The notes: generated by a model not told the origin, from the letters alone. Counted from the stretch's first letter, positions 21,129 to 23,524 are shown. The stretch: 64,000 bases of DNA from an uncultured Bdellovibrionales bacterium (GCA_964510575.1 CAZECN010000005.1:18518-82517); one strand, 5' to 3'. Made by a program: numbers and translations.

Positions 21129-21461
21129 TTAGTCTTTGTTCTCTTCATCCGACTCGTCTAGTAGAGAGGAATCTACAGCCATTTTTACTGCGGACTCTAC
21201 GGTTTTTCGTTGTTCTTCTGGTAAACCGTCTGGACCAAACATTTTTTCTGCTTCTTCATTGATTAAGGTGTGGAGCGTGTCGCGGTCCGCCGTGGTCATT
21301 TTTCGGCCGGCCTTACTTCCACCAGAAGTTTTAGCTTTTTTAGCTGTTTTTTCCACCTGCTGAGAGGAGCCAACCTTGCTGGTTTTGACCTCTTTGCTTC
21401 CTTCAACAGCTCCAGTACCTGAACCAATCTTGGGTCCTTTACCACCAATTTTCTTTACCAT
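21129..21461 (-). CDS. Small protein with a Gly/Lys/Ser-rich disordered N-half and an acidic C-terminus; translationally coupled to the upstream sigma factor
   Basis: 110 aa. Its ATG overlaps the sigma-factor stop (minus strand reads ATGGTAA). No recognisable family. Confidence 0.5.
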   Translation of the reverse strand: MVKKIGGKGPKIGSGTGAVEGSKEVKTSKVGSSQQVEKTAKKAKTSGGSKAGRKMTTADRDTLHTLINEEAEKMFGPDGLPEEQRKTVESAVKMAVDSSLLDESDEENKD

Positions 21462-22333
21462 GTTGCACCTAGCTGTTCGTAGTTAGAAAGGGAAATTAAT
21501 AGAAAAATAAAACCAGTTAATACAGCTGACGATCCACTTTGTTGTGAAGCAAATTTATTGAAAGGAGGTTCCGATTTGGATTTTTTCATTTTCATCGCAA
21601 TAGGTCTGAGCCCAGGTCGAATTTTTAACTTCTTTCTAGGCGCCTTGCCTTCGGAGACCATATAAAAAACATAAGAAAGAATTTCTTTGTGTTCTCGAAC
21701 TATAACTAACTCATCTAAGGACCATTCTTCCGCTAATTTTCTCATTGAAAGGTCTTTCCAATAGATAGCATATAGGATTTCTTGATGTACTGGTTCAAGG
21801 GCTGATAGTCGCTCGAGCATTTCGTTATACTCAAGAGCTATCGCAGGATTCTCTCGTCCACTTTGTTCAAATGCAGCGATGACGCTGGCACTCGAGAGCA
21901 TTTGTCTGATGGTGTTTCTAAGAGATGCACCTTCAGTATCTTCTTCATTTTTGACAAAACCAGACCGAAGTTCTGGAAAAACTTGCATTAACCTAGCAGA
22001 GACCTCTCTAGCAGTTTGTTCTTCTGGAGTTGCTGATCCAACCCCTTTTTGCCAACTTTTAGATTTTCTTGCTTCCTCAGTCGAGGCTTCGTGGATTCTT
22101 CTTCTAGCATATCCGCGAAAGGGAACTCCCATTCCAGGGTCGTAACGCTGTGCGCAAAATAGTAGACCTTCGTAAGCTCCGCCATCTAAGCCGTCTAATT
22201 GATAGTCCAGATTCCAGGCTCTTGCGACTGACTTTGCTATTGAAGTAGCCCAACCAAGATGGTCGTCCACTAGGAGCTGTATAAGATCCGAGCTACCGGC
22301 TGGAAAATTTTTGTATTCTTCTACTTTGTTCAT
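21455..22333 (-). CDS. Sigma-70 family factor, FliA/group-3-like
   Basis: Region 2: YEGLLFCAQRYDPGMGVPFRGYARRRIHEA. Region 4: LSALEPVHQEILYAIYWKDLSMRKLAEEWSL. There is an unusual ~70-aa C-terminal extension ending in a short hydrophobic stretch (AVLTGFIFLLISL). Confidence 0.7.
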   Translation of the reverse strand: MNKVEEYKNFPAGSSDLIQLLVDDHLGWATSIAKSVARAWNLDYQLDGLDGGAYEGLLFCAQRYDPGMGVPFRGYARRRIHEASTEEARKSKSWQKGVGSATPEEQTAREVSARLMQVFPELRSGFVKNEEDTEGASLRNTIRQMLSSASVIAAFEQSGRENPAIALEYNEMLERLSALEPVHQEILYAIYWKDLSMRKLAEEWSLDELVIVREHKEILSYVFYMVSEGKAPRKKLKIRPGLRPIAMKMKKSKSEPPFNKFASQQSGSSAVLTGFIFLLISLSNYEQLGATW

Positions 22334-22744
22334 TTAATCAAAAGCCTTAGCCTAAGTAATGATATTATTTTTGGTCAGTCTAAGGTTTAGATGTCTCTAC
22401 TAATATAGTCGATCCTTAAAAACAGCCTATTAGTTGTAGGGTAAGGTTAGAAGCACAGTTTCTCTTCAAATTCTCCCTATGATCAGCTTATCTATAAGTT
22501 ACTGTAATTACTATTTTAAATAAGAAGCGCCCTAGTATAGAAACGATCTATATCATACAGATTTAATCAGGTATAGGCAGTTTCTACTAGGAAAAGCTTA
22601 ATTATATCAGAGGATTATAAACTAATTAGAAGTGATTTTGGCTCAGAGCTGATTAGTGATTGTTAGTCGGACAATCAGGCAGTTTTGCCGGTTTGTTTAG
22701 CAGTAGAGAATTTAAATTAGTCGGTTTTTAGGGGTATCAATCAA

Positions 22745-23524
22745 ATGTCTACTAAGTTGAAAACAGTTTCCACGACCAGAAAGAAACCATCAGTGAAAAA
22801 GCAGAAGTATATTGATGAGTTGGTCATTAACCATAGAGAAAACGGTCGAAAGCTTGCCAGAAGTTTCTTAAGAAGGTGGCGAGTCAGAATGCCTCTTGAA
22901 GAAGTAGATAGCATTGTCGACCTTACGCTTTGCGAGGCAGCCGGACGCTACGATAAGACAAAAGGTGCTTCATTTATGACCTTTTTCTATTACCATTTAA
23001 GAGGTCAAATGGTCAGGGCTGTCGAAGGAGCTGCACAGCAAAGCTCGATGATGGTTAATTTTTCCCAAACTTCAGATCTTGATGTCACAGAATGGGCTCA
23101 ACAGGATTACGCCTTGAATTCTATGGTGATTTCCGAATCGATTTGCCCTGAAGGTTCTGGGGCTAGCACGCCTGAGCACGCAGCAATTAGAAAACAAAGT
23201 ATTGAAAAGTGTGTAAGAGCTTGTGACCAACTTGATGATTTAGAAAAAGAAATTATTTCCCGTTCTTATTCTAAAGACGAAGCCTTAGTAGATATTGCTA
23301 AGTCGCTTGGTTACAGCAGATGTCACATCTCTAGAGTAAAGAAAAGAGCCATGGTTCGGCTCAGAGAGATTCTGGAAGTCCAGGGTCTTGAAGGGACAGG
23401 AGCTCCACTTACTCTTTCTGAGACAGTGTCTGCTGAGAGGACGCCTAGGAAACGAAGAAGTCGAGTCCGCTCTAATAGAGTTTCAAAAACAAAAAAACCA
23501 GCAGCTATCAAAAGAGTTGCTTAA
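22745..23524 (+). CDS. Sigma-70 family factor, FliA (sigma-28)-like
   Basis: Region 2: DLTLCEAAGRYDKTKGASFMTFFYYHLRGQMVRAVE. Region 4 HTH: LDDLEKEIISRSYSKDEALVDIAKSLGYSRCHISRVKKRAMVRLREI. Basic C-terminal tail (RKRRSRVRSNRVSKTKK). Confidence 0.8.
   Translation: MSTKLKTVSTTRKKPSVKKQKYIDELVINHRENGRKLARSFLRRWRVRMPLEEVDSIVDLTLCEAAGRYDKTKGASFMTFFYYHLRGQMVRAVEGAAQQSSMMVNFSQTSDLDVTEWAQQDYALNSMVISESICPEGSGASTPEHAAIRKQSIEKCVRACDQLDDLEKEIISRSYSKDEALVDIAKSLGYSRCHISRVKKRAMVRLREILEVQGLEGTGAPLTLSETVSAERTPRKRRSRVRSNRVSKTKKPAAIKRVA

What the first reader, a model, noticed from the sequence alone, without database searches (positions are those of the whole stretch)
21129..23524. Divergent pair of FliA-like sigma factors flanking the T3SS locus, one coupled to a small disordered protein (candidate exported anti-sigma)
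Seen: two group-3/FliA-like sigma genes face away from each other across a 411-bp AT-rich spacer (22334-22744). The minus-strand one has an unusual ~70-aa C-terminal extension. Its stop overlaps the start (ATGGTAA) of a 110-aa protein with a Gly/Lys/Ser-rich disordered N-half and an acidic C-terminus. Established knowledge: flagellar sigma-28 is held by FlgM, a disordered anti-sigma factor that is exported through the T3SS to couple assembly to transcription, and sigma/anti-sigma pairs are often translationally coupled. Inference: this small protein may be a FlgM-like secreted checkpoint for this T3SS. There is no sequence similarity to FlgM that I can see.
Basis: partly seen in the sequence, partly recalled or inferred. 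Interest (0 to 1): 0.5.

Follow-up and report, generated by a model that had tools for sequence, protein, structure and literature searches.

The report
Conserved two-sigma plus small-partner cassette
Next to a pilus and secretion-machine gene cluster of an uncultured predatory-type bacterium sits a three-gene control cassette, conserved in about 80 related species: two unusual flagellar-type sigma factors and a small, half-disordered partner protein that probably restrains one of them, though whether it is exported is untested.

Summary
Sigma-like gene A (21455-22333, minus) and sigma-like gene B (22745-23524, plus) diverge across a 411-bp spacer of 33% GC. A's stop overlaps the start of a 110-aa gene (ATGGTAA). 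Both sigma genes lie at one edge of the Tad/T3SS-like locus; they do not flank it.

A and B are distant FliA-like sigma factors but fail the FliA/WhiG family threshold. A folds as a three-domain sigma. A true FliA exists elsewhere in the lineage.

The cassette B<- ->A-small is conserved in uncultured Bdellovibrionota. The small gene follows A in 80 of 81 species loci. B is divergent in 71 of 81.

Both genes carry promoter-like motifs of one sigma-28-like class, T[A/G]AA-N17-GCnGATA. The B motif is almost exclusive to B's upstream region, including window 22625-22663. Neither motif was found upstream of T3SS or Tad genes.

The small protein has a disordered basic N-half, a two-helix hairpin and an acidic tail. 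It shows no FlgM homology.

Best reading, confidence about 0.5: the small protein is A's co-made antagonist. Its export through the T3SS is possible but unsupported (about 0.15-0.2).

The parts
21129..21461 (-). Small partner protein gene (110 aa): disordered basic N-half (residues 1-56), helical hairpin (57-75 and 82-101), acidic tail
   Evidence: ORF. Family of 229 representatives, most of them about 100-130 aa. AlphaFold2 model. No Pfam, NCBIfam or PDB match. Lies immediately downstream of sigma A in 80 of 81 loci.
21455..21461 (-). Stop/start overlap ATGGTAA between sigma A and the small gene
   Evidence: Read directly from the sequence. Overlaps of 1 to 23 nt occur in 24 of the 80 related loci; the rest have gaps of +2 to +93 nt. 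The overlap explains why 34% of A homologues end in W and why the small proteins start with MV.
21455..22333 (-). Sigma A: divergent three-domain, FliA-like sigma-factor paralogue (292 aa)
   Evidence: Pfam Sigma70_r2 scores only 18.3 bits (cutoff 24), and FliA_WhiG 27 bits against 189.6. AlphaFold2 pLDDT is 88. All 50 Foldseek PDB hits listed are RNA-polymerase/sigma-factor entries; the top ones, aligned over 230-268 columns, include sigma-32, WhiG and sigma-28. 50 invariant residues among 92 homologues.
21551..21637 (-). Family-wide basic C-terminal extension of sigma A (residues 233-261, RKKLKIRPGLRPIAMKMKKSKSEPPFNKF)
   Evidence: The motif K[VI]RPGL[KR]..A..L[KR].....GPF is conserved in all subclades. 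Predicted helix 240-252 with pLDDT about 98. Mean net charge about +8.5.
21488..21526 (-). Hydrophobic C-terminal tail of sigma A (residues 270-282, AVLTGFIFLLISL); candidate membrane anchor, specific to this clade
   Evidence: A Kyte-Doolittle 15-residue window of at least 1.6 occurs in 86% of the 120 closest homologues, almost always in the last 50 residues. It is absent from the more distant subclade, roughly 60 of 81 species loci. Predicted helix 259-291.
22334..22744 (.). Divergent control region, 411 bp, 33% GC
   Evidence: The sigma-70 consensus scan finds no site inside it.
22625..22663 (+). P2, the promoter-like bipartite motif of sigma B. Reading toward B: ATTAGAAGTG-N-GCTGATTAGTGATTGT, ending 81 nt before B's ATG
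   Evidence: Best PWM hit in the whole 64-kb window, 21.2 bits with a 16-nt spacer. Conserved in L088, L089 and L090. The family motif is present in 65 of 71 intergenic regions. Of 72 hits >=16 bits in 1.23 Mb, 69 lie in the B/A control region or directly upstream of B. The motif moves with B where B has been relocated. Composition-matched null maximum is 17.7 bits.
22394..22436 (-). Weak candidate for the sigma A promoter (P1) in this genome: CTAATAGG...ATCGACTATA, about 70 nt before A's ATG
   Evidence: This is the best P1-PWM position upstream of A, but it scores only -2.2 bits. It is partly conserved with L088 (ACCGACTATC). In about 37-40 of 80 other loci the same position holds a clear CTAAAG-N-GCCGATA motif. 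Low confidence for the window itself.
22745..23524 (+). Sigma B: sigma-70-family, FliA-like paralogue (259 aa)
   Evidence: Pfam Sigma70_r4 40.8 bits (cutoff 24.1). TIGR02937 49.9 bits (cutoff 42.9). FliA_WhiG 46 bits against 189.6. The family profile's top PDB hits are FliA at 7.6e-9, 4.6e-8 and 3.9e-7. 616 homologues.
23438..23521 (+). Basic C-terminal tail of sigma B (RKRRSRVRS...KRVA): an RRxRRR-type motif and a terminal Ala
   Evidence: An arginine-run motif occurs in 86% of 120 homologues. 62% end in -AA and 73% in [AV]A, against 7% of background ORFs.
23559..23596 (+). Terminator-like hairpin after sigma B (GGCCTGTTT...AAACAGGCC followed by TTTTTTT)
   Evidence: Read directly from the sequence. 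The automatic scan missed it because the loop is 12 nt.
20278..20673 (+). Context: last gene of the T3SS-like operon, a TPR class-II (LcrH/SycD-like) chaperone, convergent with the small gene
   Evidence: Pfam TPR_19. NCBIfam LcrH_SycD 35 bits, below its cutoff. The same neighbour appears in many related loci.

Best explanation
The three genes form one conserved regulatory cassette of an uncultured Bdellovibrionota lineage. Sigma A and sigma B are distant, FliA-like sigma-factor paralogues (a three-domain fold is shown for A). They are additional to the lineage's genuine FliA. They are transcribed divergently from two back-to-back promoter-like motifs of one sigma-28-like class: P1, TAAAG-N-GCCGATA, points toward A-small, and P2, TGAAGC-N-GC[G/A]GATAAGGGGG, points toward B. 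In both, the spacing is T[A/G]AA-N17-GC.

The 110-aa protein is made from the same mRNA as sigma A, here by stop/start overlap. It is most likely A's stoichiometric binding partner and antagonist, an analogue of an anti-sigma factor rather than a homologue. In this model its acidic C-terminal two-helix hairpin engages sigma A. The strongly basic C-terminal extension of A is the family-specific feature most likely to take part. In the window's clade, a hydrophobic tail would additionally hold A at the membrane. When the partner is removed, sigma A would act on promoters of this class, plausibly including B's. Sigma B looks short-lived because of its conserved C-terminal Ala-Ala.

Shown: gene order and its conservation, the sigma fold, the promoter motifs and their attachment to each gene, and the disorder/helix layout. 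Inferred: the binding, the inhibition, which sigma reads which promoter, the membrane anchoring, and the proteolysis. How the partner is removed (export, proteolysis or a ligand) is not known.
For: Gene coupling. The small gene lies immediately downstream of A on the same strand in 80 of 81 species-level loci. Gaps range from -23 to +93 nt, with overlaps in 24 loci. B is divergent in 71 of 81; most exceptions are contig ends. This is the standard layout of sigma/anti-sigma operons (established knowledge).

Sigma nature. A's AlphaFold2 model (pLDDT 88) matches only sigma-factor/RNA-polymerase entries, with the top hits aligned over most of their length. The B profile hits FliA at 7.6e-9, and the A profile's best PDB hit is FliA at 0.015. 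A and B align profile-to-profile over 193 columns.

Promoters. P2 is present in 65 of 71 intergenic regions at fixed spacing. Of 72 hits >=16 bits in 1.23 Mb, 69 lie at B. The null gives 4 hits >=16 bits and a maximum of 17.7. The motif follows B in L018 and L025. The window copy at 22625-22663 is the best hit in the window. P1 scores >=15 bits upstream of A in about 37 loci, with few hits elsewhere. No sigma-70 consensus site lies in the spacer.

Partner features. Residues 1-56 are disordered, followed by two helices and an acidic tail. Mean charge is +4.9 in the N-half and -2.9 in the C-part, against about +8.5 in A's extension.
Against: The small protein has no sequence or fold similarity to any anti-sigma factor. 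It has two helices, whereas FlgM uses four (the FlgM figure is from my own knowledge). No complex could be predicted. Co-transcription is equally compatible with a positive cofactor or a chaperone. Sigma A's region 2.2 and region 4 are atypical, so its activity as a sigma factor is unproven. The window's own P1 is weak at -2.2 bits. The membrane tail is absent from most of the family, so it cannot be central to the mechanism.
Confidence: 0.5

Rival explanations
1. The small protein is a FlgM-like anti-sigma factor that is exported through the adjacent T3SS-like machine. Assembly or activation of the machine would then release sigma A (and/or sigma B) and switch on T3SS/Tad-related genes.
For: All of the evidence for a sigma A partner applies here too. 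The cassette abuts the T3SS-like operon and its TPR chaperone gene in the window and in 34 of 50 informative loci. A long disordered N-terminus is typical of T3SS substrates and of FlgM (established knowledge). A non-flagellar precedent exists in BtrS/BtrA of Bordetella. In this clade sigma A carries a putative membrane tail. That tail could place the complex at the export gate, and sigma-28 is known to act as FlgM's secretion chaperone (my own knowledge). One strong P2-class site precedes a prepilin-like gene in L024.
Against: No FlgM homology. No P1 or P2 sites upstream of T3SS or Tad genes in the window or the loci. The T3SS-like locus has no ATPase, secretin or needle genes, and its SctU lacks the C-terminal switch domain. 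Export competence for such a substrate is therefore uncertain. 16 of 50 loci have no core T3SS gene within 6-10 kb. The N-terminus is strongly basic.
Confidence: 0.17
2. The small protein is a positive partner of sigma A: a co-factor, stabiliser or second subunit needed for promoter recognition or RNA-polymerase binding. It would resemble Crl for sigma-S or RsoA for SigO rather than an inhibitor.
For: Strict co-occurrence and co-translation. Sigma A has degenerate regions 2.2 and 4 that might need help. The promoter class has a spacer 2 bp longer than the canonical TAAA-N15-GCCGATAA (the canonical spacing is from my own knowledge).
Against: No DNA-binding or sigma-like fold in the small protein. 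The acidic helical part and long disordered half are more typical of inhibitors. There is no direct evidence either way.
Confidence: 0.15
3. The small protein is a component or substrate of the T3SS/Tad machinery, such as a gatekeeper-like or rod-like subunit or an effector. It would merely be co-expressed with sigma A and would not regulate it.
For: Weak sub-threshold TyeA hits in 4 of 110 members. It is a helical hairpin with a P-x-x-x-P turn and is convergent with the T3SS chaperone gene.
Against: The gene stays with sigma A even where T3SS genes are 5-8 kb away or not detected. The TyeA and DUF7645 hits are at noise level; the DUF7645 hits examined cover only about 20 residues. The variable acidic C-terminus is unlike needle or rod proteins.
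Confidence: 0.1
4. Sigma A is not a working sigma factor. It would be a sigma-derived regulator, for example a membrane-held decoy or an anti-sigma of sigma B or FliA, with the small protein as its modulator.
For: Sigma A falls below the Pfam thresholds for regions 2 and 4. It has an invariant DGLDGGA where DLxQEG normally sits. It has a hydrophobic tail in this clade.
Against: The full three-domain sigma fold is predicted with high confidence. The FliA-like region 2.3/2.4 signature is conserved. The tail is missing in most of the family.
Confidence: 0.06

Closest known systems
FliA (sigma-28) / FlgM flagellar checkpoint
   Same: FliA is the nearest solved relative of both sigma A and sigma B. 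The promoter motifs have the same two blocks, T[A/G]AA and GCnGATA. The partner is about 100 aa with a disordered N-half and a helical C-half.
   Different: Neither sigma reaches the FliA/WhiG threshold, and a true FliA coexists in the lineage. The partner has no FlgM homology and only two helices. The spacer is N17 rather than N15. The neighbouring machine is not a flagellum. Sigma A has a basic extension, with or without a membrane tail, and sigma B has a basic tail ending in Ala-Ala.
BtrS / BtrA (BspR) of Bordetella: a sigma factor with a T3SS-exported antagonist
   Same: A sigma gene and an adjacent antagonist gene lie beside a non-flagellar T3SS locus, and secretion is coupled to transcription.
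   Different: BtrS is a two-domain ECF sigma, whereas sigma A has a three-domain fold and both sigma A and sigma B are FliA-like. Homology of the small protein to BtrA was not tested. Export is shown for BtrA and not here.
Co-transcribed ECF sigma / anti-sigma operons
   Same: The sigma gene is followed by a small partner gene, often with overlapping stop and start codons. Autoregulated or dedicated promoters are typical (for the general scheme).
   Different: The partner here has no transmembrane segment or anti-sigma domain. The sigma is not an ECF type. A second, divergent sigma paralogue is part of the cassette.
Membrane-tethered sigma factors (IutY of ECF243, SCO4117 of ECF52; pro-sigma-K and pro-sigma-E)
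   Same: In the window's clade a hydrophobic segment follows sigma domain 4. Release by proteolysis is the known logic in those systems.
   Different: Here the tail ends within about 10 residues of the hydrophobic segment, so there is no external sensor domain. The tail is absent from most of the family. Nothing shows cleavage.
WhiG / RsiG (Streptomyces)
   Same: A group-3, FliA-like sigma is held by a helical-hairpin anti-sigma factor. WhiG-RsiG complexes are among the top structural hits for sigma A.
   Different: The RsiG c-di-GMP-binding motif E(X)3S(X)2R(X)3Q(X)3D (from my own knowledge) is not visible in the small protein's alignment. No homology was detected.

Membership tests
FlgM (Pfam PF04316, anti-sigma-28) | Sequence match to the FlgM domain | tested here: not met
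   The window protein and all 110 family members give no PF04316 hit at E<=10. hhalign of the family against three FlgM sequences, each verified as PF04316, gives probability 0.07%.
FlgM (Pfam PF04316, anti-sigma-28) | About 90-110 aa, disordered N-terminal half, helical C-terminal half | tested here: met
   In the AlphaFold2 model, residues 1-56 have no secondary structure and helices span 57-75 and 82-101. There are two helices rather than four.
FlgM (Pfam PF04316, anti-sigma-28) | Binds and inhibits its sigma factor | not testable with these tools
Only the gene coupling (80 of 81 loci) speaks for a partnership.
FlgM (Pfam PF04316, anti-sigma-28) | Exported by the type III apparatus | not testable with these tools
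   No secretion predictor or experiment was available. The neighbouring machine lacks an ATPase, a needle and the SctU C-domain.
FliA/WhiG sigma factors (TIGR02479) | Score at or above the curated family cutoff (189.6 bits) | tested here: not met
   Sigma A scores 27.1 bits and sigma B 46.2 bits. A genuine member in the same lineage (L001 15375-16124) scores 244.1 bits.
FliA/WhiG sigma factors (TIGR02479) | Three-domain (sigma 2-3-4) group-3 architecture with FliA as nearest relative | tested here: met
   Foldseek alignments of sigma A cover most of sigma-32, WhiG, sigma-28, SigB and sigma-S. The top PDB sequence hits of the sigma B and sigma A profiles are FliA.
FliA/WhiG sigma factors (TIGR02479) | Reads TAAA-N15-GCCGATAA promoters | tested here: inconclusive
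   Motifs of the form T[A/G]AA-N17-GCnGATA sit upstream of both genes. Which sigma factor reads them is unknown, and the spacer is 2 bp longer than the canonical one.
Sigma-70 family (Pfam regions 2 and 4; TIGR02937) | Curated-threshold match to region 2 and/or region 4 | tested here: met
   Met for sigma B: Sigma70_r4 40.8 bits against 24.1, and TIGR02937 49.9 bits against 42.9. Sigma A is sub-threshold (r2 18.3 bits against 24, no r4 hit) and qualifies only by fold.
T3SS-exported anti-sigma systems (BtrS/BtrA type) | Sigma and antagonist genes adjacent to a non-flagellar T3SS locus | tested here: met
   True of the window and of 34 of 50 informative related loci.
T3SS-exported anti-sigma systems (BtrS/BtrA type) | The sigma factor controls T3SS genes | tested here: inconclusive
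   No P1 or P2 sites upstream of T3SS or Tad genes. Operon starts are rarely inside the 20-kb loci. Two leads exist: a 24-bit P2 site before a prepilin-like gene in L024, and a shared 14-mer upstream of rcpC in the window.
T3SS-exported anti-sigma systems (BtrS/BtrA type) | Homology of the partner to BtrA | not tested
   No BtrA sequence was compared. The Pfam, NCBIfam and PDB searches gave nothing.
Membrane-tethered sigma / anti-sigma fusions (IutY, ECF52) | Transmembrane segment C-terminal to the sigma domains | tested here: inconclusive
   A hydrophobic stretch of 13-19 residues is present in the window and in 86% of close homologues but absent from the distant subclade. No dedicated transmembrane predictor was run.
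Membrane-tethered sigma / anti-sigma fusions (IutY, ECF52) | Extracytoplasmic sensor or anti-sigma domain beyond the membrane segment | tested here: not met
   The window protein ends 10 residues after the hydrophobic stretch, and in most close homologues the protein also ends soon after it.

The most novel reading that the evidence does not exclude
The cassette could be a contact-coupled transcription switch for a needle-less T3SS/Tad killing machine in a predatory Bdellovibrionota lineage. Sigma A, held at the membrane by its tail in this clade, would act as secretion chaperone for its own unrelated, FlgM-like antagonist. The antagonist would be expelled through the T3SS-like gate when the machine engages. 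That would free sigma A to fire a new sigma-28-like promoter class (T[A/G]AA-N17-GCnGATA), including the promoter of the short-lived second sigma B and of pilin-like genes.
Probability: 0.12. Interest if true: 0.8.

Novelty: new variant of a known kind. Interest (0 to 1): 0.5.

Why it matters
If the reading is right, this is an independently evolved sigma-28/anti-sigma-like switch. It has three parts rather than two, its own promoter class, and no detectable homology between its partner protein and FlgM. It sits beside a joined Tad plus needle-less-type T3SS locus outside the myxobacteria. How such predation-type machines are regulated, and how contact is turned into gene expression, is not known. 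The cassette gives concrete candidates: two sigma factors, one partner protein and two promoter motifs. All can be synthesised and tested in vitro even though the organisms are uncultured. It also defines three unannotated protein families. Sigma A in particular escapes the Pfam sigma-domain thresholds.

Tried and rejected
- FlgM membership is rejected.
- The weak TyeA (4 of 110) and DUF7645 (11 of 110) hits were followed up. The DUF7645 hits examined cover only about 20 residues at 12-16 bits against a cutoff of 27, so they are treated as noise.
- Foldseek and PDB profile searches with the small protein returned nothing meaningful.
- A sigma-54 reading of P2 was considered. The GG/GC spacing fits in one locus (L016) but not in others, so it is rejected (by inspection).
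- I searched for sigma-28-type or P1/P2 sites upstream of T3SS and Tad genes. None appeared in the window's intergenic regions or in related loci.
- I tested whether the 14-mer shared by P2 and the rcpC upstream region is conserved. The single metagenome relative of RcpC (L091, 45% identity) lacks it and also lacks the flp gene, so this is inconclusive.
- The 78-aa ORF before the true FliA in L001 is hydrophobic, looks like a membrane protein by eye, and has no family hit; it shows no FlgM-like features.
- Rfam found no RNA family in 20500-24000.
- No sigma A-small gene fusions were seen among the homologues; the longest A homologue is 332 aa.
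Full report
**1. Observation**

- a 110-aa ORF at 21129-21461 (-);
- a 292-aa ORF at 21455-22333 (-), here called sigma A;
- a 259-aa ORF at 22745-23524 (+), here called sigma B.

The spacer 22334-22744 is 411 bp with 33% GC, against 42.5% for the window. On the minus strand sigma A ends ...ACA TGG TAA and the small gene starts ATG GTA AAG. 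This is a 7-nt overlap (ATGGTAA), with an AGGTG ribosome-binding-like motif inside A's last codons.

One point in the title is wrong. The sigma genes do not flank the T3SS locus. Both lie at its 3' edge.
- Plus-strand genes from 159 to 20673 encode a Tad pilus set: TadZ, an Flp pilin at 1248-1433, RcpC/CpaB, CpaF and TadB/C.
- These run directly into T3SS-like genes: SctV, a Ser/Thr kinase-HEAT protein, two FHA/YscD-like proteins, SctJ, SctO, SctQ, SctR, S, T, U and a TPR chaperone.
- After 23524 come housekeeping genes.

**2. What the proteins are**

Sigma A is barely recognisable by sequence models.
- Pfam Sigma70_r2 scores 18.3 bits, below its cutoff of 24, and there is no region 4 hit.
- NCBIfam FliA_WhiG scores 27 bits against a cutoff of 189.6.

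Its fold is clear, however. An AlphaFold2 model built on 92 homologues has pLDDT 88. All 50 Foldseek PDB hits listed are RNA-polymerase/sigma-factor entries. The top ones are aligned over 230-268 columns: sigma-32, WhiG, sigma-28/FliA, SigB and sigma-S. Sigma A therefore has a three-domain, group-3-type architecture plus a C-terminal extension (helices 240-252 and 259-291).

Sigma B passes the curated thresholds for Sigma70_r4 (40.8 bits) and TIGR02937 (49.9 bits). It scores 46 bits for FliA_WhiG.

Family profiles searched against PDB sequences put FliA first for both proteins: 7.6e-9, 4.6e-8 and 3.9e-7 for sigma B, and 0.015 for sigma A. A and B align to each other profile-to-profile over 193 columns at 79% probability. 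BLASTP between them gives 2e-4 in region 2.

"FliA-like" is therefore correct as nearest relative. Neither protein is a member of the FliA/WhiG family by its curated test. The lineage also has a genuine FliA (L001 15375-16124, 244 bits).

The small protein has no Pfam, NCBIfam or PDB sequence match. It belongs to a coherent family of 229 representatives at 50% clustering, most of them about 100-130 aa and matched end to end.
- AlphaFold2 on 110 homologues gives no secondary structure for residues 1-56, then helices 57-75 and 82-101 with pLDDT about 80-87, then an acidic tail.
- Across the family the N-half is basic (mean +4.9) and the C-part acidic (mean -2.9).
- None of 110 members hits FlgM (PF04316) at E<=10.
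- hhalign against three FlgM sequences gives probability 0.07%. I recalled those sequences from memory and verified each as PF04316.
- Weak TyeA and DUF7645 hits are noise.
- A Foldseek search with the model is uninformative.

**3. Conservation of the cassette**

A scan of one genome per species found 94 genomes with a sigma A relative. The 80 loci kept are all from uncultured genomes, mostly MAGs labelled Bdellovibrionota, Bdellovibrionales, Oligoflexia or "Deltaproteobacteria".

In 81 non-redundant loci:
- the small gene follows A on the same strand in 80, with gaps of -23 to +93 nt and overlaps in 24; the single exception has A at the contig end;
- B is divergent upstream in 71, and most of the others are cut by contig ends.

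The same order is seen on contigs fetched by exact protein look-up. Core T3SS genes lie within about 8 kb downstream, convergent, in 34 of 50 loci with enough sequence.

The overlap explains two apparent conservations: the terminal W in 34% of A homologues and the MV start of the small proteins.

**4. Family-specific tails**

All A homologues carry, after sigma domain 4, a basic motif K[VI]RPGL[KR]..A..L[KR].....GPF. Its mean net charge is about +8.5.

A hydrophobic stretch of 13-19 residues follows in the window's subclade. It is present in 86% of the 120 closest homologues. It is missing from the more distant subclade, where the protein ends about 10 residues after GPF. It is thus a clade-specific addition, possibly a tail anchor, and not part of the core mechanism.

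B homologues have a variable linker, then an arginine run (RRxRRR, 86%). They end in -AA in 62% and in [AV]A in 73%, against 7% of background ORFs. A C-terminal Ala-Ala is a classical ClpXP-type degradation signal (my own knowledge). This suggests sigma B is short-lived, which is an inference.

**5. Promoters**

K-mer enrichment in 71 A-B spacers revealed two motifs.

*P2.* Read toward B, P2 is cTGAAGC[A/G]-N14-GC[G/A]GATAAGGGGGTGT.
- It is present at fixed spacing in 65 of 71 spacers at >=12 bits.
- In 1.23 Mb of loci, 69 of 72 hits >=16 bits lie in the B/A control region or directly upstream of B.
- A composition-matched null gives 4 hits >=16 bits and none above 17.7 bits.
- In L018 and L025 B is not divergent from A. 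There the motif has moved with B and keeps its orientation, so it belongs to B.
- It usually ends 40-70 nt before B's ATG.

The window was first missed because its clade has a spacer 1 nt shorter. Allowing for that, 22625-22663 scores 21.2 bits. It is the best hit in the 64-kb window and is conserved in L088, L089 and L090.

*P1.* Read toward A, P1 is CTAAAG(G/T)TTT-N-(T)GCCGA(T/A)A.
- It lies 45-110 nt before A's ATG.
- It scores >=15 bits upstream of A in about 37 loci, with few hits elsewhere, most of those inside ORFs. The shuffle 99th percentile is 10.7 bits.

Both motifs share one architecture, T[A/G]AA-N17-GCnGATA. This is the sigma-28 consensus with a spacer 2 bp longer than TAAA-N15-GCCGATAA (the canonical spacing is from my own knowledge).

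In the window itself P1 is weak: CTAATAGG...ATCGACTATA at 22394-22436, scoring -2.2 bits and only partly conserved with L088. The sigma-70 consensus scan finds nothing in the spacer.

Neither motif occurs upstream of T3SS or Tad genes in the window or the loci. However, operon starts are seldom inside the 20-kb loci. There are two leads:
- A 24.2-bit P2 site lies 22 nt upstream of an 87-aa ORF with a prepilin-type N-terminus (…SECG|ASLVEALLL…) in L024.
- The 14-mer TTAGTGATTGWTAG occurs exactly twice in the window: inside P2, and 122 nt upstream of rcpC. The only retrievable relative was too distant to test this.

**6. Mechanism**

The data show a self-contained cassette: two FliA-like paralogues with promoters of a sigma-28-like class, and a small, half-disordered protein co-made with one of them.

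The layout matches sigma/anti-sigma operons. It has a sigma gene, then a small gene with overlapping or closely spaced codons, held constant across about 80 species. The partner's charge pattern complements A's basic extension. I therefore take the small protein to be sigma A's stoichiometric antagonist (confidence about 0.5).

Several steps are inferences:
- which sigma reads P1 and which reads P2. By parsimony the more canonical promoter P1 may be read by FliA or sigma B, and the divergent P2 by sigma A;
- whether sigma A is membrane-held in this clade;
- whether sigma B is degraded through its Ala-Ala end.

It fits the genomic adjacency. It gains nothing further from my tests and has some counts against it:
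- no promoter link to T3SS or Tad genes;
- a machine without ATPase, secretin or needle genes, and with an SctU that lacks its C-terminal switch domain;
- 16 of 50 loci without nearby T3SS genes.

I put it at about 0.17. The rivals are a positive cofactor, a machine component or substrate, and sigma A as a non-sigma regulator. None can be excluded without binding and transcription assays.

**7. Comparison and novelty**

The closest systems are:
- FliA/FlgM, for fold, promoter type and the partner's layout;
- BtrS/BtrA, for a sigma and partner beside a non-flagellar T3SS;
- ECF sigma/anti-sigma operons, for gene layout;
- IutY/ECF52-type tethered sigma factors, for the clade-specific tail.

The cassette differs from each of these in several ways:
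- it has three genes rather than two;
- the two sigma paralogues fall outside the FliA threshold;
- the partner has no homology to known anti-sigma factors;
- the sigma C-terminal extensions are new;
- the promoter spacing is distinct.

I rate it a new variant of a known kind. It is not established as a T3SS checkpoint. Interest is moderate (0.5). It offers testable regulators for Tad/T3SS-type machines in an unstudied lineage, but the key functional claims remain inference.

Noticed in passing
window 159-20673: A Tad pilus gene set (TadZ, Flp pilin, RcpC, CpaF, TadB/C) runs without a break into a T3SS-like set (SctV, kinase-HEAT, two FHA/YscD-like proteins, SctJ, O, Q, R, S, T, U, TPR chaperone) on one strand. 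A 2025 review states that co-occurrence of the Tad-like Kil system and the needle-less T3SS* appears restricted to one myxobacterial suborder. Here the two are physically joined in a Bdellovibrionota lineage.
   Followed up: partly
window 18901-19647: SctU is only 248 aa and matches positions 2-235 of the 335-position FlhB/SctU model, so the C-terminal autocleaving switch domain is absent. Relatives are also short: 258-262 aa in L001, L003, L088 and L089.
   Followed up: partly
window 1-64000: No T3SS ATPase (SctN), stator (SctL), secretin (SctC) or needle gene was detected among the ORFs of at least 110 aa that were scanned across the 64-kb window. The M. xanthus T3SS*, by contrast, has SctN. 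Small unannotated ORFs of 75 and 41 aa lie between SctJ and SctO (15317-15666).
   Followed up: partly
window 8735-14142: A Ser/Thr kinase-HEAT protein (881 aa) followed by two FHA/YscD-like proteins sits inside the T3SS-like operon, which suggests phospho-dependent control of the machine.
   Followed up: no
window 23438-23521 and the sigma B family: Sigma B homologues carry an RRxRRR-type arginine run (86%) and end in Ala-Ala (62%, against 7% of background ORFs). This resembles a ClpXP-type C-terminal degron.
   Followed up: partly
window 1672-1685 and 22653-22666: The 14-mer TTAGTGATTGWTAG occurs exactly twice in the window: inside sigma B's promoter motif, and 122 nt upstream of rcpC (the Tad operon). 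By my own back-of-envelope estimate, roughly 0.001 exact matches would be expected by chance. The tool's own shuffles were run at up to 2 mismatches, where the 3 matches found are not unusual. Conservation could not be tested because the only relative found, L091, is too distant.
   Followed up: partly
L024 13627-13952: A 24.2-bit copy of the sigma B promoter motif (null maximum 17.7 bits) lies 22 nt upstream of an 87-aa ORF with a prepilin-type leader (…SECG|ASLVEALLL…). It is the only strong copy of the motif away from sigma B in 1.23 Mb.
   Followed up: partly
L001 15104-16124 (also L011): A genuine FliA (244 bits) lies beside the SctRSTU genes in these relatives. It is preceded by a hydrophobic 78-aa ORF that looks like a two-transmembrane protein by eye. 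Three sigma-28-type genes therefore cluster at this locus.
   Followed up: partly
window 20673-21129: The convergent spacer between the TPR chaperone gene and the small gene is filled with repeated inverted-repeat units (GGCGCAGTAT / ATATACTCAACC; 41-nt and 30-nt imperfect hairpins). These look REP-like. There is no Rfam match.
   Followed up: partly
window 22663-22670 and 22717-22724: Two copies of TTAGTCGG (CCGACTAA on the other strand) lie in sigma B's leader between the promoter motif and the ATG. Both are conserved in L088.
   Followed up: no
window 23861-25546 and related loci: A PMT_2/ArnT-like membrane glycosyltransferase lies next to sigma B in the window and in roughly 20 related loci. 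It may be a conserved neighbour of the cassette.
   Followed up: no
window 1248-1433: A canonical Flp pilin gene (…EKG|ASMLEYCLLAALI…) lies in the 872-bp gap between TadZ and RcpC. It falls below the usual ORF length cutoffs.
   Followed up: no
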